Shown piece after piece: positions 8,982-39,404 of a stretch of 64,000 bases of DNA. A program made the position numbers and the translations under genes. The notes below the pieces were generated by a model that searched no databases, was not told the origin of the DNA, and worked only from the letters and a program-made list of their open reading frames with translations. Origin of the DNA: Alphaproteobacteria bacterium GM202ARS2 (GTDB lineage: Bacteria; Pseudomonadota; Alphaproteobacteria; GM7ARS4); the NCBI GenBank assembly GCA_014323835.1, contig JACONH010000012.1:95363-159362 (forward strand), read 5' to 3'. Position 1 is the stretch's first letter. Each line of letters starts with the position of its first letter.

Positions 8982-9010
8982 TTGACAAAATCGACTCGTT
9001 CTTTTATGCT
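8982..9010 (+). promoter_or_regulatory. sigma70-like promoter candidate for the giant gene (TTGACA - 17 bp - TATGCT)
   Basis: TTGACA at 8982..8987, a 17-bp spacer, TATGCT at 9005..9010. The RBS AAGGAG lies at 9036..9041, 9 nt before the GTG start at 9051. Confidence 0.35.
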
Positions 9011-9050
9011 TGGCTATCTGTTTTACTGTCACGTCAAAGGAGATTGACCG

Positions 9051-12000
9051 GTGCCGATACGTCTTGTTTTGCTTTTGAGTTTGTTTGTTTTGGGAGGGGT
9101 TTCATCATGTTCGTCGGGGGATTCGCCTTCCTCGAGTGCTTGGGTGCCGCCTCGTGTTGTTGTTGAGGGTCGGGCGGGGACTCGCCCTGACCCGGGCACG
9201 CGCCCGACTGACCCAGGTCCCACTGATCCAGGTCCCACTGACCCGGGTGTTGTGCCGCCGGGGGATCCGGATGGCACTGAGATACTGGTGTCCAATGATA
9301 GAGGGACGACTTTGCGTGGCACGCAGGATTTCCAGAGCGGTCAGCAATCGCCGGTGTTGATGGCGTTGCTCGAGGAAGTGGAGGAGGCTGATACTGAAGA
9401 GGAAGCCTCTATGAGCAGGCTCGAGAGTCTGTTTGGTTTTGGCAGTGGTGTGACCGAGCAACAGGAGCGCACTCGTTCCAGCTTTGAGTATGCCAATCAG
9501 CCGTCTTTCGACAAAGTCGGTGCGGGGTTTGCTTATTATGATCGGACGCGCACGCAGCCGTCCAGCGGTGGCTTGTCGGCTTTTCAGGACGATGGCGGGT
9601 TGTTGTATGACCGCACGGGTGCGGGGTCATCGATACGTTATTTGACCGACAGACGTTTTGGTAATTTTAATGGCACAACGGGACGTTTCACCGATACCAT
9701 CGGGTCACATCCCGAGTTGGCTTTGTCCGGTGGCGAGGCTCTGGTGCGGGCGTGGTCGGACGATATCACCAGTCGAGTGGCGGGTGCTTTGCTCTTTGAC
9801 CCCTATGTCAGACGCGAGGAACGCAAGCTACTGTATACGTATAACCGCTTAGGGACGTTACAGCACCACAGCAGTGCGGCGGTGCGGCAACCACGGGCTT
9901 TGGCTATTCCGTTTCTTAATCAAGGGGCGTCCACGACACCGCCGGCAGATATTGTAGCGGTTCTTTTCCATCCTGACCCTATCCCTACTCCTCCCCGTGT
10001 CAATGTTCACGGTGCTGACCCTAGCCCGTTAACTGTAGAGGACTCCCGTATCATTACGGCTTTCAATCGTGAAACCCTCAGCAGCATTTCTGCGGGTATC
10101 GATGACTCGGCTTATGTGGTGGCGCGTCGCTCGGTGTTGGCTCGGATAATCGATTCGGGCGTTCCGGGCTTCGATTTCTTGGTGGATGACAACGGCAACC
10201 CTGTTCTTGTGGATGAAAACGGCGATGTTGTGCCGACCGACAGTAGCGGCGACCCGCTGGATTCTAATATAGACATTAACACCCTTGATTTCGCCTACAC
10301 TGAGGACGTGGGGTATACCTATGGCGATGTTTTTGTTCAGACGGTGTTTGCCGCCTATGATCTTCCTTGGGGGGCTACCGCTGGTGACTTCCGTTCCGTT
10401 GGCGAGGAAGCCACGGCTGAGGATATTGGTCTGTTGGCGTTGATACGTGGTTTGGTCAATCCTGAGGATTCGATTAACTTGGCGGCGTTGCGGGTGTCGT
10501 CTCATGGTATTGCCCCGGGGGCGGAGTTGGGTGTGTTGACGACTCATGGTTTGCGGGAAGTGGGCGATTGTGTTTCGATCGCGCGTCCCACGAGTTCGGC
10601 TACCGCAGTGGGGACGTGTGACTCGACTGGTGGCAGTGATTATGGTGAAGTCAAAGCCGTGCGTGGCGGCGTTAATCTCTATGATGCGATTTTGCGAGCG
10701 GGCGCGCCTCGTGGTGTTGGGCGCGGCAACATTATTTTGTTCGATAATCGCTTGCAGGCATCGGGCTTGAGCATGGTTCTGGCAACGAGGGATATCACGC
10801 AGTTGCCCTTTGCCGACAACAACCTGTGGCACATTGAGAGTCAACGTGCGGGCGGTTTTTCTACCGATTTGGGTGATTATTACACACGGGTATCTGATGG
10901 CACGGTTGCGTTGCGTCCGACCCTTGCTGCTGACAATGGGGTGAAGGTCTACGAGCAAGACGGCTACAAGGCGAAGGGCACGGAGGTTACGACTTTTGAT
11001 GACACGACTCTCACGCCGCAGCAGATTGTCTTTGCGATTATTGATGGTCATTATGGTGCGAATACGATATTGCGTTCCCGTAATGATTTAGGCGCGGACG
11101 CTCAGCGGGCGTTGCGTCTGTTGTTGGGTATGCGTCATAGTTTGCAGCGGAATGATGACTCGGTGGTCGAGGATTATGATGCCTTGATTTTTGCCGCGCA
11201 GGAGCAAGGCGGTGATATTGGTTTGTTTGCGGGTCTGCCTCTTCAGGTTGATTTGCTGGTGGATGCTCGCCGTGCCGCGGCGGAGGCGGACTTTGCCCTT
11301 GCTTTGCGTGATGGTTTGAGCGAGCGCGATATTTTACAACGGGCATTTGCGGCAGGACACAGATATGACGCTGGTCGTCAGACTCTGCGGACTGAAATCA
11401 CCGTCGACAACGTCGATGGCGAGCCGATTGCTTTCCATAGACGTGTTTTCCATCGAGTGCCGCCGGCGTTGAATGACGATTTGAATAATTCGCAAGTGTC
11501 GCTTACGTCCTTTGAGTTTTTGGAAGGGAGCAATCAGCTACGTGTGGTTTTCAGCAATGGTAATTCGTATACCATTGAGCGCGGTTTGAATGAGCAAGGT
11601 GTTGCCAATGATTTCCCTGAGGGTCAGGGTCATTATTACTATGCGGCGGCTCGTGAGGTTCTGTTCAAGGTTGCAGGCGCGCGCACGTGGGTGTTTCATG
11701 CTGTCCCGCAGTGGCTTGTGGATGGTTTAGATTCGTCGGCTTCCTTTGAGTTTGTGGACAATCGTAACGAGGTGCGTGTGACTCTCAGTGATGGTCGTGT
11801 TCATGTGTTGGATGTGCCGACAGACCTTGAGACGCCGTTGCCGTATTATTTGGCGGTTGTTGCTGCCGAGAGTGGTGCTACGCCTTGTGGTGTTGTGGCA
11901 CAGGATTTCTGTTTGGCTGCTCCGGGGGCGTATACGTATCGCGATCCGGGTAGCGATGAAGCTTATGACGAAGATGATACGTTGGAGACAACGACCGCAA

Positions 12001-15000
12001 CTGCTCGAGCTGCCGCGTCGCTGGTTGCGGGTGGTTTTGCTCTGTTGCAAGAAGTCTTTGACGGGCAGTTGAATACTGCAGAGTTGGTTGCTCGTATCAA
12101 GCAGACGGCATCGCAGAACTTTGACTTGGATGGCGATGGTAATAATGACTATACCCAGATGGATGGCGGGGCTGAGCGGTATGGGCATGGTTTGCTCGAC
12201 TTGGAGTGTGCCACCAGAGCGAGTCTCGATAGATCCCGCTGTCGTCCAGCCACCACTGAAACCCGTGAATTCAGCCCGCAGGCGTGTTTGTTGCAGGGTA
12301 GAGGGGTGAATGTTGCGGGTGATGGCTGTGCGTCTGCATCGAGAAGTGCTTGTCGGGCGTTGGCGTTACAGGGCGCGGTGTTTGATAGCGCGAACAGCCG
12401 TTGCGTCAGCGAGACGGGATGTTTGGGCGTTCAGGGACGAGTCATCGACTTCGAAGTGGGCGAGTGTTTGACCGATGCGCGGGCGTGTCCTGCCGATAGA
12501 CCCAATGTTGCCGATGGACGTTGCTCGCAACGTATATCCGCAGAGATTTGTGCCAATTCGGGGCGTTTCTTGTTGGAGGAGTCGTCATCGGGGTCAGCTT
12601 TCCTCACTGAGGCTAATCGTGGCTTCCGCTGTGTCGATTCCTGTCCTGCTTTTCAGGGTGTGCGTGACGGCAATGTTTGCGTCGGCGATACGGCGCGGTG
12701 CGGTCCTGATGGTCGGGGGTCTCGAACTGTGCCTGGTGATGACCCTGGCGTTTCGCGTTGTGTCTCGTCTCTCGATGACTCTTTCACCGAGGATACGTGT
12801 TCGGCGGCGGGGCGGTTTGTTTCCTCTACGGGTGATGCTTGTGTAGCGCGCTGTGCTGCCGGTGAATTCGTTGGTGTTGCTATGGGCGGGACGTTGCCAG
12901 TGACGTGTATGTCCACGTGTCCGTCAAGGGGTGTTAGGGACTCGACCGATAATTGTATCTCGCGCTCGGCGTGTGTTGGCAGTGGTGTTGTCAGCTCGGA
13001 TAATCGTCAGTGTTTCACGGATGGCGATGATTGTCCCGCGGGCTATGGTGTTTATAAGAATCAATGCACCAGTCGGGTGATTAACGATGATAGCTGTTCG
13101 GAGGCGAGTCGTTTTGTTGGTGCAGACCGTCGGACGTGTGTTGCCAGTTGTGAGGGCGGGCAGTTTGTTGGGGCTGGCAGCTTAGGGGCGAATACGTGTT
13201 ATTCGGTTGATTTGTGTCAGGCGGCGGGTGGTGGTCGTGAAGCCATCAATTCGGGTGATTGTGTGACGGCAACGGCTTTGAGTTGTTACAATCTTGGTTC
13301 GGTTACGTACTTATATAACGGCATGCGTGGCGCGGAAGCTGCCTGTGTTGATACGTGTGCTAGCGGTGAAGTGCGGCAGATGTCAGGCTCGGCGAATCAG
13401 TGTTTGAGTCAGTTGGGTTGTCGGGAGTTGAGTTTGGTTGTGGGGCAGGGTGCCGAGCAAGATTTATGTGTTGCGGCGAGTGCTATAGGCTGTGCTCGAG
13501 ACGGAGGGCGAGGTTTTGAGAATGGTGCGTGCGTCGCGGCGTCAGCATCGACGTGTGATACGAAGGGTATTTCTTTTGTGGATGGTGAGTGTCGTTCTTG
13601 TTTGCGCTCGCAGGGTCTTGTGGGTAGCGAGTGTCGCAACATTGACACGTTACCAACAACGGCAGAGCAAATTACGGCGTGTGCGGCGTTGGATAGGTTG
13701 TATGACCCTGCCAGCACGGCGCGCTGTGTTGCGACAGCCTCGCAATGTAGCGATAACCGCGTGCAAGGTGTTTCGGGGTTGACGGTCAATGGTGTCGCGG
13801 CGGATACGCAGTGCGTTGCGGTGAGCGAATGTATCATGGGCGGTTTCGGGCTTGGCACCAACGTGTGTGCGCCAGCGGCGGCGGATACGTGTTACAGTGC
13901 CGATTCGGCTAGATATTTTTATGATGGCTCGAGCCGTTGTGTTACCGATTGTGGTGCGGGCAATGCTCGCCGCACGGTGGGGACGAGCAATGACTGCCCG
14001 TCAGAGATGATGTGTCGGGATACGTCATCGCGGGCGGTTAATAACGGAGTCTGTGTTGTTGCGGATAGCGATACCTGTCGAGCGGATGGCTCTCGGGTTT
14101 TCTCGACCAATAAATGTGTTGCCAATGCGCGGGCGTGTATCAATGAGACGGGCGACTTAGGCTATGATAGCACGACCAACAGCTGTGTTATGGCGACATC
14201 ACCGACAGAGTGTTTGGCTGCGGGCAATGCGTTCTTTGATGGCACCGATAGGTGTCTTGCCGAGTGTGCCGCGGGGCAGGGGTCTGATACCAATCGAGAG
14301 TGCATGGCGGTAACGGCGGCGAATGGTAATGTTGTTTGTGGCAATGCGTCGCGGCGTTTTGATGTTATGGCTGATGCCTGTAAGTCGAGCAACACGTGTG
14401 ACGTGGGCGAGTTCTTAGGGGATGCCAGTTTTGGGGCGAATAGTTGTTATACTGTGGAAGGGTGCGTCATGGCGAGCGGTGGTCGTAGTGTGTCAACCGG
14501 TGTCTGTGTGGGTGCGGCGGCGGATACGTGTCGTGCCGCGGGTGTGTCCACGTATTACTTTGATTCGGCGCGGGGCTGTGTGACGGCGTGTGACATGGGT
14601 GGCTTGACGGTCAGGCGTGCTTTGGGCTCGGGCAATAGATGTTTGACGCCAGCGGAGTGTCGTTCTCTGCCCCATACGGGCCCCGATAGGGGGGCGGTGC
14701 TTGCGGGTGATTGTGTTATTGCAACAGCGAATACGTGTGCCGGTGATGATAACGGCGGGCTTGGTTTTAGGAATGGCATTTGTATCGAAGCGAGTTCGAC
14801 GAGCTGTGATACGACTATGGGCATTCAGTTTTCGAATGGTCGGTGCATGGCTTGTAATGCGGGTCAGGGCTTTGTTTCGGGGTCGGGTTGCACGGATATT
14901 ACCACGTTGGGCACGGCGGCGGCACAAGTGGATGCCTGTGCGGCGGCGGCTCGTTTGTATGACCCTGCCAGCACGGTTACGTGCGTTGCGACAGCGAATG

Positions 15001-18000
15001 ATTGCACCCAGAACAGAATTCAGGGGCGTTCTGTTGTGATGGTGAATAACCGTCCTTCGAATAGCCAGTGCATTTCCATAGCCGAGTGTGGTGCGGGTAT
15101 GTCGGGTGTCGATACGGGGAGGAATAGATGTGTGGCGGGCACGGCAGTTACGTGTAAAGCGGTTACCAGTAGCACGCATTACTTCGATGGTGATGACGGG
15201 TGTGTTACGTCTTGTTCGGGTGTGGCAGATATGAGGACGGTGACTCGTGCGATAACGGGTGGCAACGAGTGTGTTACGGCAGATAATTGTCGTGGCATGG
15301 CACATACTGGCAGTGTCAGGGGTGCGGTGCAAAATAGCAATAATTGTGTTGTTGCGAATGGCAATAATTGTGCCTTCGATGACAGTCGTGCCTTTAACGG
15401 TGCGATGACGGGTTGTGTTGAGTCATGTATCGTTGATGATGGTGGGCGTGGTCGTTCTGCTTTGGGTCAATGTGAGGCTGCATCACCGGCTTCCTGTTAT
15501 AGAGATTTTCAATCATCCGCCGATGGCTTTTACGATGCCAATGCCAGTGGTGGGGCGCGTTGTATCGAGTTTCCCAATCAGTGTGCCAATGGTGCCTTCG
15601 GTAGTAGTCGTTCGCTTATGAATGAGTGTGTGGCGGATTGTCCGAGTAGCGGGCAGGGCGTGAATAGCAACAATATTTGTAGCGGTGTCGGTGGGCTCAA
15701 TGCTACCGAGCGGGTAACCAACTGTATACGTGCTGAGCGTATCGTGGAGGGCAACGCTTGCACCGAGACGTGTTCGAGTGGCACGCCCTATTATAATGGC
15801 ACCGATACGTGTGTGGACGCGGCGGGATGTGTTGCGATAAATCGGGGCGTTGCGACTAATGCGGCGAGTCGCTTTGGTCGCCAGATTGCCACAGCCGGTT
15901 CCTGTGCGACCGCCAGTGCCGCCAGTTGTCATACTGCGGGGTCTTCTACGTACTTCTTTAATTCGGGTGCACGTCGGTGCGTGTCGGATTGTGGCGCGGG
16001 CAATGCTCGCCGCACCGTTGGCACGAACAATACGTGCATTGCCGAGACCGCCTGTCGTAATGCCACCAATCGCGGTGCGGTTGTGGGTGGGATGTGTGTC
16101 GCGGCGAGTGCTGATACGTGTTTTGCCGATGGCGGAATGGGCTTTGGCAGTGGCCGTTGTGTGACGGCTTCCGCGACAACGTGCAATGAAGATTTGAACT
16201 ATGTGTTCGATGCGGACGATAGAGCGTGCGTGTTGGGCTCCTTTGTGGATGTTGCGTTGCCTGCCACCATAACGACTCGAGCGGATGCGTTGGCGTTGTT
16301 TACGGGCGACCCAGCTGAGGCAGCGGCGGCGGATGAGGTTAAGAACATCCGCACCGAGTATCAGGCACAGCCGTCTTTGGCTCAAGTGGGTGCCGCGCAG
16401 GCGTATGTCAGCCGAGTGCCGAACAGCGGGGCAACCATCAACAACCTGAGCCAGCTGACTATTGGCAAGGGAAGCCAAATCAGCGTGATTACCAATAGGC
16501 GTTTTGACCCGTCACACCCTGAGTTCTCGTCCGCAGTGACTGGCACGGATGCTGTCGACTACGAGACCCTGACGCGGTTTTACATAAGTGTTTCAGGCCG
16601 TTTACTTAATGACGATTTTAGTTCTGCGACGGCTGGTGCTCATGTATTTCTTAATCGCTATTTCAGTGGCGATAGCGGTGAGTCCCCTCGAACCGTTTTC
16701 TATACGAGCGGATATAGTCCGTTCGGAAATTTTGAAGCCTATTTCTCAGCAAGAATAGGGCAGATAACGAATATGAATTTCGATGCGATTTCTCGGACAG
16801 ATACAAGTTTTGATGGTACCACGAGCAATCCTGTTGGGGTGGGTTTGCTGGGGGTGTTTTCTCCGCTTCTTGGTGGTTCGGCTGTTGATGTAACACCGTC
16901 ATTCGATGGATTTGAGATTACTTATGATTCGAGTCAGAGGGTGATTATCGTTGATACTGCTTCCGACGATGACGAAAACTTCAACCACGTGGGGCGTATC
17001 TATGCGGAGGGCGAGGGCAATCTCGGCTCGTATCAAATTGTTGTGACCAGCGACACGGTGGTGCGTCAAGATAACAACACCTATGGCTCAGACGTGCCTG
17101 ATGAGGCGGACGCTGAGGAGATGGGCTTGTTGGTTTTGATTAACGGCATGTTGGATGGTGCAGGGGGTGCTACCAACACGCACGGCATTGCCCCGGGGGC
17201 GACTCTGAATGTGTTTACGTCACCGCGAGTAGGTGCCAACAGGCATAATTCTGTTGATTTGATTTATCGGGCGCGGGGCATCGATATTGCCCGTGATAGA
17301 GACAACAACGGCAATTTGATAGCCGACCCCGTCCGTAACATTGTGCTGATACAGAATACGCTTGCCCATAGTGAACGCAACAACGCTGTTACTGTTGCCA
17401 ATGTTAATGATGTGGTGGGTGCATCGGGTAGTAACATTGCTGATAGCTATAAGGAGATTTATGAAGCCTTGCAGTTGGGTGTCAAAGCACCGGTGCAGGG
17501 GTCTGTAACCGCTGACGAGAAACAACAAGACATTTACGTGTTTGCCGCGGCGGATAGTCGTAGCGCGCAAAATGGCGTAGGCTTGTTGGCTGCCTTGCCG
17601 GCATCGACGTCGGGAACATCGCTTATGCCCTATTCTGTTGCGGTGGTTGCCGCGGAAGATGCTGCCAGTGCTTTTTGTGGCGTGACCGCTAACGATTTCT
17701 GTTTGGCGGCACCGGGGGCGTATAAGTATCGTGATGATGGTGCGGATAACGCCTACGGCGGTAGCGATGACACCCTAGAGACCGCCAGTGCGACCTCCAA
17801 TGCGGCGGCGTCTTTGGTTGCGGGTGGCTTTGCTATCTTGGAAGAGCTGTTTGGCGACCAGCTGGGCAGTGACCAGTTGGTGGCTCGTATGCTGGCGACA
17901 GCATCGCAGTGCTTTAATATAAACGGCGGCGGTGCCGAGGCTTGGAACAGCGCGACTGGCAGATGTGAGAATGCTCGTAATGATTATGTTGGTGATAGAG

Positions 18001-26858: not shown

Positions 26859-26901
26859 GGATGGTGTCAACGACTACGGCACAGATGCCACCAAGCACGG
26901 A
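26804..26901 (+). repeat. perfect tandem duplication, 2 x 49 bp (TGGATGAGGATGGTGTCAACGACTACGGCACAGATGCCACCAAGCACGG)
   Basis: Read directly: 26804..26852 is identical to 26853..26901. 49 is not divisible by 3, so the second copy shifts the frame and provides the TGA stop of the upstream ORF. Confidence 0.95.
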
Positions 26902-28497: not shown

Positions 28498-28508
28498 GGG
28501 AGGGCACC

Positions 28509-31500: not shown

Positions 31501-34500
31501 AAGGCTTACTCGACCTGATTAGCGGCGGCGGTGATGTCTCGGATGCGGCGGTGACCCTAGGAGAAAACTTTAACTTTGGTGGCATCAAGACCCTGCGTCA
31601 TTCTATCGCCCCAGAAGCAACCCTGAATGTTGTCAATACGGCAGGTATGGCATTACAACGGGATTCAAGTGGTCTCAGAGCTATTGTTAGCAGATCTGGG
31701 ACGAGAACGACAGCAGGAAGTGAAAGTTCCTTGAGATCGCTTATAGACAGGGATGAGTTTGTGGTTCAGCTACAGGATACTAACGTGTATCGTCATATTA
31801 CAGGTGCCGGGGCACCAGCATGGCAGACTCGCGGCAATGTCATTCTCTTCGATAACCGCATGGCTGCCGATAAAGATATACACACTGTCTTCGCGGCGCG
31901 GGCAGCCAACTATTTTGAAGGGTTGACGACCGATACCAATGCCGATGCCATCGACCCCATTGGTTTTAGGAATAGCGTCTGGCGTCTCGATGCTCGTGGT
32001 GGTGCTACTTTAGCGACTTCCAGCTTTACTCGTGACCTTGACGCCTACTTCTATGCACCGGGCACACAAAGCCCGGCTTTCGCCAATGTTAGATACGATA
32101 ATCTTTATATCGATCAGCCTAGGGGGAATAATGAGGTTTACACATTGCCCGGCGGCTTTTTCACTAGGCCCCCGCCCCTCGGCGGCACGTTTCCTCATCG
32201 TCCGCAGGGAGAGCAGTTAAGGAATCTCGTCATCGAAGGGCTGTATGGCACTGGCACACGGCTTTATCCGACTACTCGTGGGCGAGAGACGAGGCTCAGA
32301 TTAGTCGTTAATACCCTTAACGCCCGAACAGACACATACAAAATGGTGGACACATTTAGGCGTTTTGACAACAACGAGCTCAATGTGATTGATGCCATTA
32401 TTGACCTGATGAGACAGCGGGCGGCGACTCCCGATGTTGAGATGGATGCTTTGATTTTTGCTGCTGATGATGAAGCCAGCGATATTGGTTTGTTTGCGGG
32501 TTTACCGATTTATATCGACCGTATCCGTGCGACTCGCGATAGTGGCATTGACTCGCCGTTGCCTTACTATCTGGCGGTGGTGGCTGCTGAGGAAGGTGCG
32601 TGTGGGTGGACGGCGCGGGACTTCTGCATTACGGCACCGGGTTCGTATACGTATGCCGCCAGTGGTGCAACCTCGCTATCGACGGCGACCAGTGCCAACG
32701 CCGCGGCGGCGTTGGTGGCGGGTGGCGTTGCCCTGTTGCAAGAGATCTTTGACGGGCAGTTGGGGACGGCAGAAATCATTGCTCGTTTGAAGGCGACGGC
32801 TTCGCAGAACTTCGATGTGGACGACGATGGCAGTAATGACTATGTCGGCAATGAGGATATTCCCGATGCCGATGATGTCCGTGCCGGGCAGCGTCGTTTT
32901 GGGCATGGCTTGTTGGATTTGGCGTGTGCGACTCGTGCCAGTTTAACGCAGAGGCGTTGTCGCACCATTACGGTGAACAACGTGCTGTCGGATGACGCGC
33001 AAGCGTGTCTGAGGGCGAGGCAGGGCTTTGATGGCTCGGCTTGTATTACGTCTCCGGTCAGCCAAGCGGATTGTGACCTTTTGAATGCAACATTTTCCAA
33101 TGGTCAGTGCATGGCACCGAGAGCCCCTCGGGTTGTGCGTGGTAACCGTCAAACGTGTCTGTCGTCGGGGCGGGGCTTTGATGGCACGAACTGCATTGCT
33201 ATCCCTGTCGTGCAGGAGCATTGTGACCCGCTGAATGCGATATTGGCTAGGGGTAATCGTTGTGTTGCGCCGGGTGGTGCTCCTGCGGTTATTCTTGGCA
33301 ATCGCGACAGCGAAGCCGATGTTGTGGCTCTGTTCGAAACGTCCGCACCGTCCTTTAGTGCGGGGGTGACGAACGTACAGAGACTCGCACGGGAATATCA
33401 GAATCAGCCGAGTTTCCGCACCATTGGCGTTGCCGATGCTTATGCCCGCGGTTCCGAGCGCGTCACTTATGGTAGCAGAACCGACAGATTGATGTTGCAT
33501 GATTTGAATCTGGGACAGGGGGCGCGGATAAGTTATATCACCAACTCGCGCTTTGACCCGAGTCATCCTGAGTTCACCCGGGATGCTTATGTCACCGCTG
33601 AGAACAACCACGTCAGAACTGTGCAGGTGATAGACCCTGTTACGATGATGCCTATGATGGAGACGGTGATAGACCCGGATACGATGACGGAAGTGACACG
33701 AGTCGTAACTCGAGACATCATCACCGAGCTGAGCAAGACGTATGGGGCAGAAAGCAACATTGCTCACCATGGGATTCATATCGAAACTGCCTTTTTGACA
33801 CCGAGGGAAGGTGAGCCTGATATTAGCACGCTTATTGGTGGCATTGATGCGGCGGATATGGGTGTGATGGCGTTGATTAATGGGCTTGTCAATCCGTCGG
33901 GGAGCACCGATGCGGCGACTTATGCCAGCAATACCCATGGTGTTGCACCGGGGGCGCGCTTGGAGGTGTTTACGATACCGCACTTAGGCTTCTATTCGCA
34001 TGGCGCCTTCCGTGTGAATGAACAGACGTTGGTGCGTAGGGCTCGTGGTGCTGATCCTTCGGGTAATAACAATAATTTCCGTAACATTGTTGTGTTTAGT
34101 AACGAGATGATTAGAGAGGAGGCTGAGATTCATCCAGTGACCATGAGGAATCTTATTGAGGTGGTGGACGATAGAACAGACGGCAGGTTCGGTTCGACCG
34201 GGCATATTCCTCTTACAAACCCAGAAGGCGGAGACCCAAGAGATACAGTCGTCGGCTACGATACGACATTTAGAACTTTGGTTGAGAACGTCCGTGCCCC
34301 GCATCGAACTCGCAGTGACATACGGCAAGCCCAAGATATATACGTGTTTGCGGCGTTGGATGGTCGTGGCGATACTCGTGATAGTTCGGGTATCAAGGCG
34401 GGTTTCAATGATGCCGGTTTATTTGCCTCGCTGGTAGCGGCATCGCGTCCTAACAATGACGATGGCACGTTGGGTCGGGCGGTTTTTGCCGATTATAGTC

Positions 34501-37500
34501 TGGTTGTGGTGGCGGCGGAGCGTTATCAGACCTACGATAGTGCCAGCTCGTGGGCGGAGAACTCGCCTTGTGGTGGTTTGGTGCAGACCCTCTGTATCGC
34601 TGCCCCGGGTGTGTATCGTTATCGCGACCGTGATGATGATGGCAACTATGAGACAAGCCTAAGCACGGGCTCTAGTGCGAATGCCGCGGCGGCACTGGTT
34701 GCGGGCGGTGTTGCCTTGCTCGAGAGCTTGTTTGGCGACCAGCTTACGTCGGATAGGTTGGTGGTGCGTTTGCTTGCGACAGCCAGCCAAGACTTTGACT
34801 TGAGCGGACAGGGTGGCAATACGCTAGACGGCAATAACGACTATGTGGATGAGACAAACGGCTTAACGAAGGAAGAGCGTTTTGGCGTTGGCTTGCTCGA
34901 CCTCGAGTGTGCGACTCGTCCGATTGTATCGGGGGATACGCCTCGTTGTCGTGGTGGTGTGGCTCGTGGCACGCCTTCGTCTTGTTTGTCGGCGGGTCAG
35001 GGTTATCGTGATACGGGCGGAGGCTCGTGTGTATCGGGCGTGTCGTTGCGGGCTGAGGATTGCACGCGGGCGGGTGGTTTGTTTGATATCCGTCAATCCC
35101 CGCCGCGCTGTGTGACTCGAGTATCCTGTGGGGCGGACACGGACGAAATAACGGGTCGTTGTGTGATTCCTGAGCCCTCGCCGTTGGTGTGTGGCGCGCA
35201 GGGCGAATTCTACCACGCCAGCAGTGGCAGCTGTGTCACCAATTGTCGAGGCACCACCACGCCGCTGGTGAATGTGGCAGGCAATACGTGTGTGAATGCT
35301 TGTGTGGGCGGTGTCCGTGATAGGGTGACGAATACCTGTGTGGCGGCAACGATAGTGGATGTTGGGGTAACGGGTATCAGCACGCGGAATGCGGCTTTGA
35401 ACTTGTTTGTAGGCGACCCGAGCGAATCGAGCGCGGCGCAACAGGTCAAGGATATTCGTAGCGAGTATCAGGCACAGCCGTCACTAGGGATGGTGGGTGC
35501 CGCGCAGGCGTATGTCAGTCAGTTGGGTGCAAGTGACTCTATCGCGAACTTGGGTGAACTGGCGTTGGGACGCGGCAGTAACATTCGAGTTATAACCAAC
35601 GTGCGTTTTGACCCGAATCACCCTGAGTTTGCCTCGTCACTGCCGGGAGTGGACTTTAGAACGTTGACACGTTTTCTGGTGACACCCACCTCAGGCAATG
35701 AATTCACAGCCAACCGTCCGGATCTGGTTCGCTCCAGTGTCTTCCCTCGTGATAGTGGCAACACGGTCGAGTTCTATAGTGCTGGGGTGGGGACGGGCAA
35801 TGCTCGCTTTACCATTGCTATAGACCTGACGGGTGGTAATCCCGGCTCAACAGCAACAAGCCCGTTTGAAGACCTGTCACTGACGGAAGCTGCTGCTTTA
35901 GCGGCGTCGAATGTCGACTTAGTCGCCCTACAGACACTCTTTAGGAGTCTCTTTGCTGCTTCCCCGACGGTGGTCGACTTGACAATTCAAGGGGCGGCGT
36001 CGGCTAACTTACGCCTTGAGACTTTGCCGGGTCGCTACGTGATTAACTTGAACTCGGATGCCACGATGGGATTCCAGCATATCGGGCGAGTCTATGAGGA
36101 TGGCAGTAACATTGGCTCGTATCAAATTGTTATCGACCCAGCCACTGCGGTGCGGGATGCTGGTGATGAAGGCGAATGTGTCGTCAATGAAGATTGCTAT
36201 GCTTCAGGGGTGCCGGCTATTGCGAGCGGGGCAGAGATGGGTGTGTTGGCTCTGATTAACGGCTTATTGGATGGTCAAGGGGGTGCGGGTAACACCCATG
36301 GTATCGCGCCGGCGGCAACGTTGAATGTGTATACCGGCGCGCAAGTGGGTGCGACTGGCGATAACTATTTGGACTTGGTCTATCGTGCTCGGGGTATCGA
36401 TGTGGGACGGGATATCAACGCTGACGATGCCGTTGTAGGAGATGACGACCGCAACATTGTTATCATCCAGAGCGATATGTTGCGTAACTTGGCGAGCGGT
36501 GCCACCGTCCCTGATCCTTCTACGGGTATTACCAATCTCCGTAGCAATAATTCGGCAGTGGATAACTTCTACAAAGCCTTAGAGGTGGGTGCGGCGGATA
36601 CCGCAACGCAGGATGCCTTTATCTTTGTTGCTGATGATGCCCACCGAGCCGATGACGACCCGAACAAAGGCTATGCTGGCTACGTTGAGACACTTGGTGT
36701 GATTAATAGTATGCAGACCCTCTACAACTATAGCCTTCTGGTGGTGGCTGCCGAAGACGGACAGGTTGGCTGTGCCGCACCTCGTCTTGGGTCTGCCTTA
36801 GACGACCTTAGGCGTGCCTGCATCGCTGCCCCGGGGACGTATCGCTACCGCACCCGTAACTCTACCGATGGGACGTATAACGATGCACTAGCAACCGCTA
36901 TCAGTGGCGATGCCGCGGCATCGTTGGTTGCCGGTGGCTTGGCTCTGTTGGAGTCGATATTCCCGACCGAGAACACCTCTCGTTTGATTGATAGGTTGTT
37001 GATGACGGCATCGCAGAACTTCGATATCGATAATGACGACCTCAACGATTACGATGTTAACCAACACGGACAAGGGCTGATGGACTTAGAGTGTGCGGTG
37101 CGTCCCGCGCTTATGAGCGGCACGCTGGCTCGCACGGGTTGCACGGATAGGTTTGCGAGTGGTATTCCCGACCCGACTCCGCCGTCGCAGAATGCGCCGT
37201 TACCGCGCCCGCCTTCACAGAACGCTGAGCCTGTCGGTGAGTCGCAAGGGGAGCGCGCCGATACCGGCGGTGTCGAGTATTGTCATATTGATGGTTTGCG
37301 GATTATTTTGTCTGGTGATTTATGTTCGGACGATTATATATTGCTGGCGGACAGCGAGGGCGAGGTCAATCCTGATGCGATAGGTAACTTGCGGTTTGGC
37401 ATGGGCTTTGGCGATGCTTTATCGGGCAGTGCTTTTGGTGGCATTACGTTCTTTGATGCTTTTGATACGGCGTGGACGATAGACAATCCGTATAATCCGT

Positions 37501-38654
37501 ATGCGCAGCTGTTGGACTTTGGCAGTATTGTGATTGCGCCGATTGAGTCTCGTTTTGACATTGAGGATAGGTTCTATGCGATGCGTTATGGCACGCGTCC
37601 GGGCACGCGTAAGACGTGGAATAGTGATACGGCGAATATCACGATGGACTTTGCTACGCAGGGCATGGCGACCAAGCCTTATGCGGTCACTCGGGGTCAA
37701 ATCCGCAACACGATAACCCATGATAATGTGGGTGCTGACCCGTATGCGGATGTGCGCTTTATGTTGTCGGCGGAGGACAACGTGGGCATTGGCAGGCTGA
37801 AGGTTATGGCGTATTCGGGCATGGCGATGGGGTATGCTTTGGGCTTGCATGCGCAGGGCGATGCGATGATGCCGAGTTATTTGCTGACGAACCGTGATTC
37901 CTTCCATGCGCCGTATTTGTCGTTGGCGAGCAGTGGCTTAGGTGGTGGTATGACGTATCGATTCCGTGATGGTGGTCATATTGGTTTTGTGATGGGTGAG
38001 GGCACGAGTTTGAATGCGGATGGCACTTTGCCGTATCAGCAGCAGACGCGTCGTCCTAGGGCTTTTGCTGGCATGATGGAGTATGCCCCGCATGGCAATT
38101 TGATGTTCCATGTGGGTGTTTTGCAGGAGCAGAGCACGTTGTTGGCATCGCAGGGTTCGGGTTTGTTTGCGTTGCAGGGTGGCACAACGGCGTTCTTTGG
38201 CATGCAAGCCAAGCAGCCGTTGGGTGACAACTGGCAGGCGTTGGTGAGTGGTTATGGGGGTCGCACGCAGATGGCTCGCACGAGTGGCATTGTGTCAGGC
38301 TTGGATGTGGTGACGTCATCCTTTGATGTGGGCTTGTTGGGCTCGCATGTGTTAGAGAAGGGCGACCATGTGTTGTTCCGTGCGGGACAGCCTATGCGGG
38401 TAGAGTCGGGCACGTTGGACTTGTCCTATGTATCGTTCCGCAACAAAGCGCGGGGCTCGGTGGGCAATGTGCAGAGCTTGGATGTTGCACCAAGCATGCG
38501 CTCGGTGGAATTCGGCGTGGGCTATGGCTTACCCATAGGCACAAACGGAAGCACGGGACACATGCGATTCGCTATCGACTATGTCCTCAACCCGGGACAC
38601 CGCAACGTCCAAGACGAAGTCTTCGGTATCATGTCCTTCAGAAGAGAATTCTAG
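28509..38654 (+). CDS. giant surface protein paralog (3381 aa). It has a lipoprotein-type signal, three subtilase(S8)-like modules, Cys-rich repeats and a C-terminal autotransporter-like beta-domain.
   Basis: GGGGAGGG SD 6 nt before the ATG. The signal/lipobox is ...IAVFVLLVGACDSG, followed by TPTDPTTPTDPGTTDPG. Three modules carry the YANQPS / RFDPSHPEF / NTHGVAPGA / APG / SANAAAALVAGG motifs. The C-terminal ~520 aa are near-identical to 26900..28497 and end in GIMSFRREF. Confidence 0.75.
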   Translation: MNTSTTHTATTQTGRKTTMTLLTGFCNTLRNIGIAVFVLLVGACDSGTEFSPSREVPFARSGGSGGVTPTDPTTPTDPGTTDPGTVDPSRGGLVAASICATPYEGLPQGMTEASQCVRLNAPSLDENGNIVTNRDGTEVPRYRDDGISRESLCYRAGRNDEPLVYDHSTVSCVRAFQGCPDGQGVIQALGNNEQSGLGRRCSGQTPENIQTISTVVVGIASGDDADARQGKIDAAITAERMANPDVDLINVVEVFYDSTDDGTAQANKLQAVTNKVNGAPLVDGEARFIFRTVAVGIEPTDTPAERLAKVKAAITAERATLPSGGGGETALNANSIINVIEVFYDDGDSDAEKERKVAEAMRDEAQGNRFEHQLLFVTVAVGIEPDDTQAMREDKIRDAINARRAEVPNALAIVAVPVFHEADDTDDEKNAALAAALAEAVRGDNQEATALRKKYGSYTADMCSAGGRLLTVRGTGADALTGTGCTNLCADGTFVGDGGGSRSAGICYNDVACTASGGGRAERGSGACIAASPESCYGVSRAGSEGVAAVSYFFTNSRCIHNGCIDDISLVRATSATRGTSTCTTVRECYNQHGRTLTGNRCVASSRLCLRRGGRGFDGDRCVAASEDSCGGGLAFYYEGQCLRATCGERNEIPDARRFDKCISEANCTSDRSAALAQSGEICVSKQQGCPTGQGVNGERCTETVNAATCADAGRFVDVRGGGGARCFNTCAGREVIAGNVCLVDTCAADEVYSPTSFQCVDIDSDADTAATQCQAVGLVANVANSRCVERCSGNTRIATTGTPRCVTDVTRSSCLSNNQAFDRATGECVTADLDTCAATGAFYDGSACVEFGNNATMITTIRGTDDAAADGVDGKQSAALAALREAIAAVDDADIGSTQDVTTTVDDDDDPNTPEVPMDFFGNGADLLLLQASASDTPTRTMLLNRLRVAYANQPSLDQVGAVFAHHVGDSGRTYGFGSTVSYFAPIPTSDREGSDQGLLDLISGGGDVSDAAVTLGENFNFGGIKTLRHSIAPEATLNVVNTAGMALQRDSSGLRAIVSRSGTRTTAGSESSLRSLIDRDEFVVQLQDTNVYRHITGAGAPAWQTRGNVILFDNRMAADKDIHTVFAARAANYFEGLTTDTNADAIDPIGFRNSVWRLDARGGATLATSSFTRDLDAYFYAPGTQSPAFANVRYDNLYIDQPRGNNEVYTLPGGFFTRPPPLGGTFPHRPQGEQLRNLVIEGLYGTGTRLYPTTRGRETRLRLVVNTLNARTDTYKMVDTFRRFDNNELNVIDAIIDLMRQRAATPDVEMDALIFAADDEASDIGLFAGLPIYIDRIRATRDSGIDSPLPYYLAVVAAEEGACGWTARDFCITAPGSYTYAASGATSLSTATSANAAAALVAGGVALLQEIFDGQLGTAEIIARLKATASQNFDVDDDGSNDYVGNEDIPDADDVRAGQRRFGHGLLDLACATRASLTQRRCRTITVNNVLSDDAQACLRARQGFDGSACITSPVSQADCDLLNATFSNGQCMAPRAPRVVRGNRQTCLSSGRGFDGTNCIAIPVVQEHCDPLNAILARGNRCVAPGGAPAVILGNRDSEADVVALFETSAPSFSAGVTNVQRLAREYQNQPSFRTIGVADAYARGSERVTYGSRTDRLMLHDLNLGQGARISYITNSRFDPSHPEFTRDAYVTAENNHVRTVQVIDPVTMMPMMETVIDPDTMTEVTRVVTRDIITELSKTYGAESNIAHHGIHIETAFLTPREGEPDISTLIGGIDAADMGVMALINGLVNPSGSTDAATYASNTHGVAPGARLEVFTIPHLGFYSHGAFRVNEQTLVRRARGADPSGNNNNFRNIVVFSNEMIREEAEIHPVTMRNLIEVVDDRTDGRFGSTGHIPLTNPEGGDPRDTVVGYDTTFRTLVENVRAPHRTRSDIRQAQDIYVFAALDGRGDTRDSSGIKAGFNDAGLFASLVAASRPNNDDGTLGRAVFADYSLVVVAAERYQTYDSASSWAENSPCGGLVQTLCIAAPGVYRYRDRDDDGNYETSLSTGSSANAAAALVAGGVALLESLFGDQLTSDRLVVRLLATASQDFDLSGQGGNTLDGNNDYVDETNGLTKEERFGVGLLDLECATRPIVSGDTPRCRGGVARGTPSSCLSAGQGYRDTGGGSCVSGVSLRAEDCTRAGGLFDIRQSPPRCVTRVSCGADTDEITGRCVIPEPSPLVCGAQGEFYHASSGSCVTNCRGTTTPLVNVAGNTCVNACVGGVRDRVTNTCVAATIVDVGVTGISTRNAALNLFVGDPSESSAAQQVKDIRSEYQAQPSLGMVGAAQAYVSQLGASDSIANLGELALGRGSNIRVITNVRFDPNHPEFASSLPGVDFRTLTRFLVTPTSGNEFTANRPDLVRSSVFPRDSGNTVEFYSAGVGTGNARFTIAIDLTGGNPGSTATSPFEDLSLTEAAALAASNVDLVALQTLFRSLFAASPTVVDLTIQGAASANLRLETLPGRYVINLNSDATMGFQHIGRVYEDGSNIGSYQIVIDPATAVRDAGDEGECVVNEDCYASGVPAIASGAEMGVLALINGLLDGQGGAGNTHGIAPAATLNVYTGAQVGATGDNYLDLVYRARGIDVGRDINADDAVVGDDDRNIVIIQSDMLRNLASGATVPDPSTGITNLRSNNSAVDNFYKALEVGAADTATQDAFIFVADDAHRADDDPNKGYAGYVETLGVINSMQTLYNYSLLVVAAEDGQVGCAAPRLGSALDDLRRACIAAPGTYRYRTRNSTDGTYNDALATAISGDAAASLVAGGLALLESIFPTENTSRLIDRLLMTASQNFDIDNDDLNDYDVNQHGQGLMDLECAVRPALMSGTLARTGCTDRFASGIPDPTPPSQNAPLPRPPSQNAEPVGESQGERADTGGVEYCHIDGLRIILSGDLCSDDYILLADSEGEVNPDAIGNLRFGMGFGDALSGSAFGGITFFDAFDTAWTIDNPYNPYAQLLDFGSIVIAPIESRFDIEDRFYAMRYGTRPGTRKTWNSDTANITMDFATQGMATKPYAVTRGQIRNTITHDNVGADPYADVRFMLSAEDNVGIGRLKVMAYSGMAMGYALGLHAQGDAMMPSYLLTNRDSFHAPYLSLASSGLGGGMTYRFRDGGHIGFVMGEGTSLNADGTLPYQQQTRRPRAFAGMMEYAPHGNLMFHVGVLQEQSTLLASQGSGLFALQGGTTAFFGMQAKQPLGDNWQALVSGYGGRTQMARTSGIVSGLDVVTSSFDVGLLGSHVLEKGDHVLFRAGQPMRVESGTLDLSYVSFRNKARGSVGNVQSLDVAPSMRSVEFGVGYGLPIGTNGSTGHMRFAIDYVLNPGHRNVQDEVFGIMSFRREF

Positions 38655-38657: not shown

Positions 38658-39404
38658 GTGAAGGCTCAAGATTATGCCAGAGAAGGAGAAAATATAGCCG
38701 AAGGTATAAGCTCAATCATCGATTCAAACTTTAAGGATCAGGAGTGGAACAAGACGTTCGCTCGTGTCCTACAGGCACAACTCAAGCAAGCACGCAAAAT
38801 AGGCGGAGAATTACGACTCCGCCTATACGGCTCGAACGAAAAAGAAAATAAAGAAGCACAATACGATATACAAAGTATGGCAAACCAGCTCATCCCTGCG
38901 GATTGGGTCAATAAAAGTAACGAGTGTGGAACGATACACACTCGTAGAATCAGGGGCAGACAATGGCACAGATTCATTAGACAAAACAGCACAATCAAAG
39001 TAGATGACTTGCAAAATCCTATCAACGTAACAGCTGGGGACTCGTTGATTTTTACCGCAGAAAATGAAATTTACGATACCATGCACGAATTCGTTCACAG
39101 ACTACAAAACGTCTTCCCTGACATTCAAGAGATGTTTCAAAGTATCCACGACCAGCGAACTGCTCACGAAGACATAGATTATCTTTATCACGACGGGCAT
39201 GAAGTTGGCAAAAAGGACGATTACATTAACGCATATTTTGGCAGAGTCTATCCACATGGGGGCGCGCTCGAACTTTGGCCTATGTGTTGCCAATCAATCA
39301 TGGGGCATTTATTAGATGACTTGTATTGCCAACGCTTTTTCCTTGAAAAAGACCCCGAATTAGCTTACATAACCATAGGCGTTCTTTTTTGTTTCGAAGG
39401 GTAA
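38658..39404 (+). CDS. hypothetical protein with an HExxH motif (possible zinc-dependent hydrolase)
   Basis: 248-aa ORF starting at GTG 4 nt after the giant-gene stop, in an AT-rich patch. It contains MHEFVHRLQ (HExxH) and several Cys/His downstream. No family could be assigned by eye. Confidence 0.45.
   Translation: MKAQDYAREGENIAEGISSIIDSNFKDQEWNKTFARVLQAQLKQARKIGGELRLRLYGSNEKENKEAQYDIQSMANQLIPADWVNKSNECGTIHTRRIRGRQWHRFIRQNSTIKVDDLQNPINVTAGDSLIFTAENEIYDTMHEFVHRLQNVFPDIQEMFQSIHDQRTAHEDIDYLYHDGHEVGKKDDYINAYFGRVYPHGGALELWPMCCQSIMGHLLDDLYCQRFFLEKDPELAYITIGVLFCFEG

What the first reader, a model, noticed from the sequence alone, without database searches (positions are those of the whole stretch)
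9051..38654. Two adjacent giant genes encoding tandem subtilase-like modules, Cys-rich arrays and autotransporter-like beta-domains
Read directly: 29 kb is almost entirely two '+' ORFs. One would be about 6465 aa if the duplication frameshift were removed; the other is 3381 aa. Both start with a lipoprotein-type signal (…GGVSSC / …LLVGAC) followed by (P/T)DPG repeats. Both contain repeated 600-700-aa modules (5 + 3) sharing YANQPSLD, RFDPSHPEF, NTHGIAPGATLNVF, APG and ATSNAAASLVAGG blocks. These correspond in order to the subtilisin VAPSASLY / APG / GTSMAAPHVAGAAAL regions. The position of the catalytic Asp is occupied by T/N (VITNRRFD) and the His motif appears mis-spaced, so the modules look like pseudo-proteases. 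Between modules lie dozens of about 50-aa six-cysteine repeats (C..ADTC…YFYDGSSRCVTDCG.GNARRTVGTSN.C), an EGF/furin-like texture that is unusual in bacteria. Both proteins end with an aromatic-terminated (…FRREF) beta-barrel-like domain preceded by a Pro/Gln/Ser-rich linker. Multi-subtilase autotransporters of this size with eukaryote-like Cys repeats are not a described family as far as I can recall. They are plausible host-interaction or adhesion factors.
Basis: partly seen in the sequence, partly recalled or inferred. Interest (0 to 1): 0.8.

Follow-up and report, generated by a model that had tools for sequence, protein, structure and literature searches.

The report
Giant dead-protease surface lipoproteins, sponge symbiont
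Two neighbouring genes of a small-genome sponge symbiont encode enormous (about 6465 and 3381 residue) probable outer-membrane lipoproteins built from catalytically dead subtilisin-like domains strung between disulfide-rich, furin-like rods and ending in a membrane beta-barrel; the architecture has close relatives only in a handful of metagenomes and probably serves host contact rather than proteolysis.

Summary
Window 9051-38654 holds two tandem + strand genes. The 49-bp duplication that splits the first gene is an assembly-joining artefact: it begins exactly where one independent contig of the same population ends, and a second contig crosses the site with a single copy. Gene A is therefore very probably an intact 6465-aa ORF. 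Both proteins have lipoboxes, 5 + 3 subtilase-fold modules, arrays of about 20-aa two-cysteine units, and a roughly 510-aa C-terminal domain predicted with high confidence as a beta-barrel.

All four catalytic positions are replaced in the typical modules (Asp to Asn, His to Met, oxyanion Asn to Asp, Ser to Asn), so the modules are pseudoproteases. The Cys arrays fold confidently, and their only structural matches, all weak, are furin-like repeats.

The barrel is homologous to the C-termini of hundreds of 750-1000-aa lipoprotein S8 proteases. It matches no Pfam or NCBIfam autotransporter model, and its fold resembles 16-strand porins rather than 12-strand autotransporter barrels.

The host is MAG GM202ARS2 (Ca. 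Methylospongiales, from the sponge Lamellodysidea). Multi-module relatives occur only in a few metagenomes and in the sister MAG. Verdict: a new variant of the lipidated subtilase-passenger/barrel theme. Its function as a host-contact surface fibre is inferred, not shown.

The parts
8983..9050 (+). Putative promoter and RBS of gene A: TTGACA at 8983-8988, and AAGGAG at 9037-9042, 8 nt before the GTG start. It lies just downstream of tRNA-Arg(ACG) at 8882-8956.
   Evidence: Read from the sequence; tRNA. Consensus matches only; not tested.
9051..28497 (+). Gene A: a 6465-aa lipoprotein once the artefactual 49-bp copy is removed. In the window it reads as two ORFs, 9051-26858 and 26764-28497.
   Evidence: Independent contigs show a single copy.
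9051..9110 (+). Gene A signal peptide with lipobox (VPIRLVLLLSLFVLGGVSS|C, Cys20).
   Evidence: Read from the translation. A lipobox is conserved in 23 of 37 full-length family members.
9180..9275 (+). Pro/Thr/Asp-rich (P/T)DPG linker that follows the lipidated Cys of gene A.
   Evidence: Translation.
9438..12245 (+). A module 1: a divergent, about 936-aa pseudo-subtilase module with large insertions. Triad positions read D / I / R, with E at the oxyanion position.
   Evidence: (weak S8 hit, E 0.018). Triad residues were read by eye against module 2.
12246..16295 (+). A Cys array 1: 120 Cys, about 56 two-Cys units.
   Evidence: AF2 model of aa 1501-1720 has pLDDT 86.5. Furin-like matches only.
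16296..18095 (+). A module 2: pseudo-subtilase with N / M / D / N at the Asp / His / oxyanion Asn / Ser positions.
18096..18794 (+). A Cys array 2.
18795..20555 (+). A module 3: pseudo-subtilase (N / M / D / N).
20556..22694 (+). A Cys array 3 (68 Cys).
22695..24350 (+). A module 4: pseudo-subtilase (N / M / D / N).
   Evidence: NCBIfam mycosin partial hit, E 1.9e-6.
24351..25145 (+). A Cys array 4 (24 Cys).
25146..26964 (+). A module 5: pseudo-subtilase (P / M / D / N). It contains the duplication site.
26852..26900 (.). Second copy of the perfect 49-bp tandem duplication: an assembly-joining artefact that creates the apparent frameshift.
   Evidence: JGI contig Ga0189853_1000050 ends at the equivalent of window 26851 (by arithmetic; 0 mismatches over the 17,434 nt fetched). 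The first 99 nt of contig Ga0189853_1000053 equal window 26753-26851, and the contig then continues at 26901.
26965..28497 (+). Gene A Pro/Gln/Ser-rich linker, conserved pre-barrel domain and C-terminal beta-barrel, ending ...FRREF.
   Evidence: 79% identical to the C-terminal domain of gene C; 492 homologues.
28509..38654 (+). Gene C: 3381-aa lipoprotein. The alternative start at 28563 gives 3363 aa, as called in the JGI assembly. The gene starts 11 nt after the stop of gene A, so the two are probably co-transcribed.
28563..28640 (+). Gene C signal peptide with lipobox (...IAVFVLLVGA|C, Cys44 counted from 28509).
   Evidence: Translation.
29139..29918 (+). Three roughly 86-aa repeats (VAVGIEPxD...AAIxAxR...VxEVFYDxxDxD...) in the N-terminal region of gene C.
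   Evidence: Seen by eye in the translation. No Pfam hit, and BLAST self-comparison does not report them.
29895..31055 (+). C Cys array 1 (36 Cys).
31299..32963 (+). C module 1: a divergent pseudo-subtilase that lacks the roughly 190-aa insert. It has D at the oxyanion position and N at the Ser position; P at the Asp position and Q at the His position were read by eye, because MAFFT misaligns this stretch of this module.
   Evidence: (S8, E 0.008).
32964..33323 (+). C Cys array 2 (10 Cys).
33324..34943 (+). C module 2: pseudo-subtilase (N / M / D / N). It gives the best Pfam S8 hit.
   Evidence: (42.3 bits).
34944..35402 (+). C Cys array 3 (14 Cys).
35403..37118 (+). C module 3: pseudo-subtilase (N / M / D / D). 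This module was modelled.
37119..37604 (+). Pro/Gln/Ser-rich linker, then the conserved pre-barrel domain (YCxIDGLRIILSGDLCSDD ... AFGD ... FFDAFD ... NPYNPY) and a short helix.
   Evidence: AF2 pLDDT is about 88-93 for model residues 625-715, with a helix at 720-729.
37605..38651 (+). Predicted beta-barrel of about 16 strands. The last 12 strands correspond to the part conserved across the wide family. The domain ends in an aromatic residue (F).

Best explanation
The locus is a two-gene operon in the reduced genome of the sponge symbiont 'Alphaproteobacteria bacterium GM202ARS2' (Ca. Methylospongiales). It encodes two giant paralogous envelope lipoproteins.

Each protein is exported by Sec and lipidated at the lipobox Cys. 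Its C-terminal beta-barrel, which ends in an aromatic residue, is inserted into the outer membrane by BAM. The part between these two anchors is a chain of subtilase-fold domains separated by rigid, disulfide-bonded rods of furin-like two-Cys hairpin units. In these domains the Asp, His, oxyanion Asn and Ser have been replaced by conserved non-catalytic residues.

The proteins evolved from an ordinary, widespread family of roughly 800-900-aa 'lipobox - S8 protease - C-terminal barrel' proteins. The steps were loss of catalysis, repeated module duplication and expansion of the Cys arrays.

The most likely role is a long, protease-resistant cell-surface fibre. The dead protease clefts would act as binding sites rather than cutting sites, and the eukaryote-like furin-type rods would serve as spacers or mimicry. 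The fibre would mediate attachment to sponge cells or matrix, or recognition or evasion by them.

Shown here: the architecture, the loss of the triad, homology of the barrel to that of the active S8 lipoprotein family, the fold predictions, the organism, and the artefactual nature of the frameshift.

Inferred: export route, surface exposure, disulfide bonding and the host-interaction function.
For: - Gene structure and modules.
- Frameshift is an artefact: one JGI contig of the same population ends exactly at window 26851. The next contig overlaps it by 99 nt and carries one copy. The MAG was built from IDBA-UD/Celera short-read assemblies (PMC7313196).
- Dead active site: in a 63-sequence alignment the active relatives have D (35 of 36 aligned rows), H (35 of 36), N (38 of 38) and S (38 of 39). 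The window modules and their metagenomic orthologues have N/P, M, D and N/D.
- Ancestry: 492 homologues of the C-terminal domain. All seven single-module relatives tested (750-1000 aa) carry a full Peptidase_S8 domain, E 1e-26 to 1e-56. 23 of 37 full-length family members checked carry a lipobox.
- Organism and lifestyle: PolA is 100% identical to that of GM202ARS2. The MAG is 1.83 Mb, carries a T3SS and is a proposed obligate sponge associate (PMC7313196). The two genes make up 1.6% of the MAG.
- Relatives with the same architecture, again as tandem giant genes, occur on metagenome contigs L001 and L002 and in the sister MAG GM7ARS4.
Against: - There are no expression, localisation or binding data.
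- Surface exposure is only an analogy with the lipidated subtilase autotransporters NalP and SphB1. The barrel is not a recognisable autotransporter barrel, and its predicted size (about 16 strands) differs from the classical 12.
- Passengers rich in disulfides are generally poor autotransporter substrates. This rests on my own knowledge of Leyton et al. 2011, which I could cite only by title, from the reference list of PMC9769942.
- Gene C has Asp at position +2 after the lipobox Cys. In E. coli that residue signals inner-membrane retention; the rule may not apply in Alphaproteobacteria.
- I could not inspect model coordinates, so the strand count, the position of the helix relative to the barrel lumen and the disulfide pairing are not verified.
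Confidence: 0.55

Rival explanations
1. Periplasmic scaffold. The barrel is a porin-type outer-membrane anchor, not a translocator. The lipidated N-terminus sits in the inner leaflet of the outer membrane (or in the inner membrane, for gene C with Asp at +2). The disulfide-rich chain stays in the periplasm as a structural or tethering element.
For: The barrel resembles 16-strand porins, and no autotransporter model matches. The very high Cys content would be oxidised by Dsb enzymes in the periplasm before any translocation. Gene C has 'CD' at +1/+2.
Against: A fibre with 2.6 kb-equivalent of rod-forming residues (2619 array residues in A) is far longer than a periplasm is wide. The ancestors are proteases with lipoboxes, like the surface-exposed NalP and SphB1 (PMC9977779). 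Eukaryote-like furin-type repeats and restriction to sponge symbionts fit an external role better.
Confidence: 0.15
2. Released, soluble host-directed effectors or decoys. The passenger is cleaved off the barrel and lipid anchor. It then acts at a distance, for example by binding host protease substrates, inhibitors or receptors without cleaving them.
For: Many subtilase autotransporters are released after secretion (PMC9977779). The Pro/Gln/Ser-rich linker before the barrel domain is a plausible cleavage region. S8 pseudoproteases that act as ligand sensors exist, such as CspC (hit 6mw4; NCBIfam name).
Against: No active protease domain is present in either protein to carry out self-release, and no partner protease was identified in the window. 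Two membrane anchors argue for retention.
Confidence: 0.15
3. Decaying or misassembled genes: the locus is a pseudogene or an assembly chimera of repeats with no function.
For: In the window gene A is split by a frameshift. The MAG comes from short reads.
Against: The frameshift coincides with a contig end and is absent from the overlapping independent contig. Apart from that, ORFs of 19.4 kb and 10.1 kb contain no stop codon. The repeats are diverged (at most 92% identical). The substituted catalytic residues are themselves conserved among paralogues and orthologues. The same architecture recurs in other metagenomes.
Confidence: 0.05
4. Active proteases that use a non-canonical catalytic set.
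For: The S8 fold is retained. Module 2 of gene A has a Ser immediately before the Asn at the nucleophile position.
Against: Asp, His, oxyanion Asn and Ser are all replaced in the same way in nearly all modules, while close active relatives keep them. Met at the His position cannot act as a general base (established serine-protease chemistry).
Confidence: 0.03

Closest known systems
Lipidated subtilase autotransporters (Neisseria NalP/AspA, Bordetella SphB1; also Serratia Ssp, Pseudomonas EprS)
   Different: The barrel does not match PF03797 or the NCBIfam autotransporter models, nor any PDB sequence. It is predicted to have about 16 strands, not 12, and resembles porins. The passenger has 5 or 3 S8 modules instead of one, all catalytically dead, alternating with hundreds of Cys residues. 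There is no beta-helical stalk.
Unnamed family of roughly 750-1000-aa 'S8 family serine peptidase' lipoproteins with this C-terminal barrel (for example WP_236106331.1 from Zavarzinia, MGF1561453.1 from Geminicoccaceae, MBC6496887.1 from GM7ARS4)
   Same: The C-terminal barrel is homologous (E 1e-10 to 1e-21 over the last roughly 270 aa). The family shares the lipobox, the S8 domain with the YG.GLLDL..A motif, the CG...C.AAPG disulfide pair and the terminal F.
   Different: These proteins have one module with an intact D/H/N/S set and no Cys arrays. The window proteins are the multi-module, inactivated, Cys-array-expanded offshoot.
S8 pseudoproteases CspC/CspA of Clostridioides difficile
   Different: They are unrelated in lineage, location (Gram-positive spore) and architecture, being single-domain proteins with no barrel, lipobox or Cys arrays.
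Eukaryotic furin-like cysteine-rich repeats (insulin receptor/IGF1R/EGFR CR domains, R-spondin Fu1-Fu2)
   Same: These are the only structural matches of the modelled Cys array. They share the rod of small disulfide-stapled beta-hairpins with alternating short and long inter-Cys loops.
   Different: There is no sequence similarity: no Pfam hit at E of 1 or less, and no homologue among 5.8 billion proteins for aa 1501-1900. The structural scores are below significance. The arrays are far longer (up to 120 Cys). Whether the resemblance reflects common origin or convergence is unknown.

Membership tests
Peptidase S8 (subtilase) fold | Sequence match to the Peptidase_S8 profile (PF00082) above the gathering score | tested here: met
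   C module 2 scores 42.3 bits in the whole-protein scan and 23.0 bits alone, against a cut-off of 21.8. The other modules are sub-threshold (14.8-17.4 bits), and only the C-terminal half of the profile matches.
Peptidase S8 (subtilase) fold | Alpha/beta subtilase fold over the whole domain | tested here: met
Active S8 serine peptidase | Catalytic Asp-His-Ser triad plus the oxyanion Asn | tested here: not met
   The typical modules have N (P in A module 5), M, D and N (D in C module 3) at these four positions. Active relatives in the same alignment have D, H, N and S. The two divergent first modules were checked by eye only.
Classical (type Va) autotransporter | C-terminal beta-domain matching Pfam Autotransporter (PF03797) or an NCBIfam autotransporter model | tested here: not met
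   There is no hit at E of 1 or less for the window domains or for 17 family barrels. The NCBIfam EprS and fusolisin hits of relatives cover only the protease part.
Classical (type Va) autotransporter | 12-stranded barrel with a linker helix in the lumen | tested here: inconclusive
Classical (type Va) autotransporter | Passenger translocated to the cell surface | not testable with these tools
   This needs fractionation, protease shaving or microscopy.
Bacterial lipoprotein | Signal peptide ending in a lipobox [LVI][ASTVIG][GAS]C | tested here: met
   The lipoboxes are VSS|C (gene A) and VGA|C (gene C), read. The PROSITE-style pattern is found in 23 of 37 full-length family members. No dedicated predictor such as LipoP or SignalP was available.
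Outer-membrane beta-barrel protein (BAM substrate) | Closed antiparallel barrel with a C-terminal aromatic residue | tested here: met
Furin-like repeat / growth-factor-receptor Cys-rich domain | Sequence match to Furin-like or GF_recep_IV profiles | tested here: not met
   There is no Pfam hit at E of 1 or less on a 1360-aa array.
Furin-like repeat / growth-factor-receptor Cys-rich domain | Structural similarity to solved FU/CR domains | tested here: inconclusive
EGF-like domain | Six-Cys EGF profile or fold | tested here: not met
   There is no Pfam EGF hit, and only one EGF structure appears (rank 25, E 2.3) in Foldseek.

The most novel reading that the evidence does not exclude
The C-terminal domain defines an undescribed, porin-sized (about 16-strand) barrel class. 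This class would export or anchor lipidated S8 passengers, a type-V-like system outside the current Va-Ve scheme, present in hundreds of Alphaproteobacteria-type proteins. In sponge-restricted Ca. Methylospongiales it has been turned into giant surface fibres of dead proteases and furin-like rods, which engage or mimic host receptors, with the pseudo-active-site clefts acting as ligand-binding sites.
Probability: 0.3. Interest if true: 0.8.

Novelty: new variant of a known kind. Interest (0 to 1): 0.62.

Why it matters
A symbiont with a genome of only about 1.8 Mb spends 1.6% of it on two proteins. Such proteins are prime candidates for the physical interface between bacterium and sponge.

The locus gives three testable leads:
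1. A clean natural example of protease domains repurposed, eight times over, as non-catalytic modules.
2. Furin-like disulfide rods in a bacterium with no detectable sequence link to eukaryotic ones, which bears on mimicry versus convergence among the 'eukaryote-like proteins' of sponge symbionts.
3. An unannotated barrel family attached to hundreds of S8 lipoproteins, whose relation to autotransport is unknown.

The locus also shows how a contig-joining artefact can turn an intact giant gene into an apparent pseudogene in a public MAG.

Tried and rejected
- Pfam and NCBIfam scans of whole proteins and single modules gave only partial S8 or mycosin hits. Nothing was found for the Cys arrays, the C-terminal domain or the N-terminal region of gene C.
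- Sequence searches of PDB with the C-terminal domain, with a module and with a 17-sequence barrel profile found nothing meaningful.
- The word-indexed search of 5.8 billion proteins found only 5 fragments for module plus C-terminus and nothing for a 400-aa Cys array. Local phmmer showed that this array matches only other arrays of gene A. It does not match those of gene C or of the orthologues.
- The exact-product look-up of gene C from the first ATG failed. It succeeded from the second ATG.
- afdb50 was not available, so no comparison with predicted eukaryotic or bacterial Cys-rich proteins could be made.
- Literature searches for the sample accessions and for prior description of these genes found nothing. 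The paper by Leyton et al. on disulfide loops in autotransporters is not held.
- Rejected ideas: a collapsed or misassembled repeat (DNA repeats at most 92% identical); a horizontally acquired island (GC 0.52-0.57 across the genes, like the flanks); a functional link to the downstream 248-aa ORF (no family hit, and absent next to the relatives).
Full report
**What is there.** The flagged interval holds three + strand ORFs: 9051-26858 (5935 aa), 26764-28497 (577 aa) and 28509-38654 (3381 aa). The first two are separated only by a perfect 49-bp tandem duplication at 26803-26851 / 26852-26900. Deleting one copy gives an uninterrupted 19,398-nt ORF of 6465 aa. An AAGGAG box lies 8 nt before the GTG start of gene A, and a TTGACA lies further upstream, just after a tRNA-Arg gene. 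Gene C starts 11 nt after the stop of gene A, behind a GGAGG box, so the two are probably one operon. GC content (0.52-0.57) is like that of the flanks. The flanks are housekeeping genes: purB, two IscS-like genes, hscA and polA.

**The frameshift is an artefact.** The window's PolA is 100% identical to that of the MAG 'Alphaproteobacteria bacterium GM202ARS2'. Two contigs of JGI metagenome 3300017829 come from the same population.
- Contig Ga0189853_1000050 is identical to the window over all 17,434 nt fetched. From its length and the position of purB, it ends at the equivalent of window 26851, which is exactly the last base of the first 49-bp copy.
- The first 99 nt of contig Ga0189853_1000053 equal window 26753-26851. 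The contig then continues directly at 26901, with one copy only, and is identical to the window for the remaining 21.7 kb fetched.

The two contigs therefore overlap by 99 nt. The window equals the first contig plus the second minus 50 nt. The MAG was made from IDBA-UD and Celera short-read assemblies (PMC7313196). A 99-nt overlap is what a de Bruijn assembler with k = 100 leaves between neighbouring contigs; that last point is my inference. Gene A is thus very probably intact at 6465 aa. Repeats between modules are at most 92% identical at the DNA level, so repeat collapse is not a concern.

**Anatomy.** Both proteins begin with a signal peptide ending in a lipobox (VSS|C in A, VGA|C in C), followed by a (P/T)DPG-rich linker.

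Gene A has five modules and gene C three. They share the blocks YxxQPSL, VITNxRFDPxHPEF, (A/E)EMGxLxLINGL, NTHGIAPGATL, YVFAAxD, CIAAPG, NAAASLVAGG and GxGLMDLECA. Typical modules are 540-600 aa. The first module of A is about 936 aa. The first module of C lacks a roughly 190-aa insert.

Between the modules lie Cys arrays of 120, 24, 68 and 24 Cys in A, and 36, 10 and 14 Cys in C. Every array has an even Cys count. Each is built from units of about 20 aa with two Cys, with alternating short (2-9) and long (10-30) loops (88% alternation). The consensus is of the type C-V-x-A-x(3,4)-C-x(3,5)-G-x-x-F/Y-x(3,6). Excluding the lipobox and signal-peptide Cys, each mature protein also has an even number of Cys (256 and 78).

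Both proteins end with a Pro/Gln/Ser-rich linker and a roughly 460-aa conserved domain. This domain is 79% identical between A and C and finishes ...FGIMSFRREF.

**Modules: subtilase fold, dead active site.** Pfam Peptidase_S8 matches the C-terminal half of the modules. C module 2 is above the gathering score (42.3 bits, E 7.5e-11), and the other modules fall below it. NCBIfam gives partial mycosin hits.

In the alignment with active single-module relatives, the catalytic columns of the relatives read D (35 of 36 aligned rows), H (35 of 36), oxyanion N (38 of 38) and S (38 of 39). At the same columns the window's modules read as follows:
- Asn at the Asp position (Pro in A module 5).
- Met at the His position.
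- Asp at the oxyanion Asn position.
- Asn at the Ser position (Asp in C module 3).

The placement of Asn at the Ser position agrees with the conserved spacing to the VAG motif: S-MAA-P-H-VAG against N-AAA-S-L-VAG. The same substitutions recur in metagenomic orthologues (P0001, P0004, P0018) and in a single-module relative (P0010). They are therefore conserved features and not decay. The two divergent first modules also lack the triad, as read by eye. The modules are pseudoproteases.

**C-terminal domain: a barrel, but not a recognisable autotransporter barrel.** Pfam, NCBIfam and PDB sequence searches find nothing. This holds even with a 17-sequence barrel profile. Family members give only weak OprB and OMP_b-brl hits.

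An exhaustive HMMER search of 1.84 billion representative proteins found 492 homologues. A handful are giant or multi-module proteins. Most are 750-1000-aa proteins that match only the last roughly 270 aa. Of nine hits scanned, seven of that size carry a complete Peptidase_S8 domain, E 1e-26 to 1e-56; the other two, closer relatives of the window proteins, gave no Pfam hit. 23 of 37 full-length family members checked have a lipobox, often followed by poly-Gly, and nearly all end in F. The named ones are annotated simply as 'S8 family serine peptidase' from Zavarzinia, Geminicoccaceae and GM7ARS4.

The topology (lipobox, S8 passenger, C-terminal barrel) is that of the lipidated subtilase autotransporters NalP and SphB1 (PMC9977779). 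Membership of that family is not shown.

**Cys arrays: furin-like rods.** No Pfam family matches a 1360-aa array at E of 1 or less. A 400-aa array finds no homologue among 5.8 billion proteins. Locally it matches only other arrays of gene A, so the loops evolve fast around a fixed Cys framework.

**Organism and distribution.** GM202ARS2 is a 1.83-Mb, 53% GC MAG from the sponge Lamellodysidea herbacea. Together with GM7ARS4 it was placed in the proposed order Ca. Methylospongiales. Both MAGs carry a type III secretion system and were suggested to be obligate associates or pathogens (PMC7313196). The same order was found in Halisarca caerulea (PMC12391866). That paper does not mention these genes.

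The two genes make up 1.6% of the MAG. Proteins with the same architecture occur in the following places:
- GM7ARS4: P0015, a partial protein with 99 Cys.
- ENA metagenome contigs: P0007 (3637 aa, 159 Cys), P0008, P0009, and a protein of more than 2861 aa on L001. On L001 and L002 they are again tandem giant genes.

The GTDB species representatives yielded nothing.

**Interpretation.** The evidence supports an evolutionary path from an ordinary lipoprotein S8 protease with a C-terminal barrel. The steps were loss of catalysis, module duplication and insertion and expansion of disulfide rods. The products are giant envelope proteins anchored by lipid at one end and by a barrel at the other.

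I consider a cell-surface fibre for host contact the most likely function (confidence about 0.55). In this reading the pseudo-active-site clefts act as binding modules and the furin-like rods as rigid, protease-resistant, eukaryote-like spacers. The grounds are the analogy with NalP and SphB1, the restriction to sponge symbionts, the size of the proteins and the cost to a reduced genome.

The main uncertainty is whether the passenger crosses the outer membrane at all. The barrel is of an unclassified kind, and disulfide-rich passengers are poor substrates of classical autotransport (my own knowledge; only the title of Leyton et al. 2011 was seen). The closely spaced Cys pairs might be tolerated, or might fold only after export.

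Rival readings, with my estimates, are a periplasmic scaffold (0.15), a released decoy or effector (0.15), a pseudogene or artefact (0.05) and a non-canonical active protease (0.03).

**Verdict.** I class the locus as a new variant of a known kind, namely the lipidated subtilase-passenger/barrel theme. Two components lack any description in the libraries searched: the barrel family and the bacterial furin-like arrays. Interest 0.62.

Noticed in passing
window 8882-8956: A tRNA-Arg(ACG) gene lies 95 nt upstream of the gene A start, with a T-rich stretch and a TTGACA box between them. GC content does not suggest an island, so whether the giant genes sit at a tRNA-linked insertion site is open.
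   Followed up: partly
window 38658-39404: A 248-aa ORF starts 4 nt after the stop of gene C. It has no Pfam hit and no counterpart next to the related giant genes on L001 and L002. Its function is unknown.
   Followed up: partly
window 40161-40556: A 131-aa ORF is annotated in the JGI contig with retropepsin-like aspartic protease families (PF13650, PF13975). This small bacterial retropepsin-type protease sits next to a 395-aa TPR protein on the opposite strand (40573-41760).
   Followed up: no
window 48001-50337: A low-GC segment (0.459, against about 0.55 in the surroundings) lies directly after the isc/hsc genes. It holds an AAA_21/AAA_15 (AbiEii-like) ATPase ORF (48782-49837) and a 167-aa ORF, and may be a small inserted defence or mobile element.
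   Followed up: no
window 55234-57984: PolA of this organism and of its three closest relatives (including GM7ARS4) lacks the precomputed Pfam 3'-5' exonuclease domain (PF01612). Every other listed homologue has it, and the proteins are of similar length.
   Followed up: no
window 29139-29918 (gene C aa 211-470): There are three roughly 86-aa repeats with a VAVGIEPxD...AAIxAxR...EVFYDxxDxD pattern. They match no family and are absent from gene A.
   Followed up: partly
window 7562-8752: A 396-aa ORF with an N-terminal hydrophobic segment gives a weak DUF7482 hit. It lies between purB and the tRNA, directly upstream of the giant genes.
   Followed up: no
L001 1-14458 and L002 2233-14485: On the related metagenome contigs the giant genes are also arranged in tandem (a protein of more than 2861 aa followed by a 1485-aa fragment; a 750-aa fragment followed by 992-aa and over 3300-aa genes). 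Several are broken into fragments, possibly by sequencing frameshifts.
   Followed up: partly
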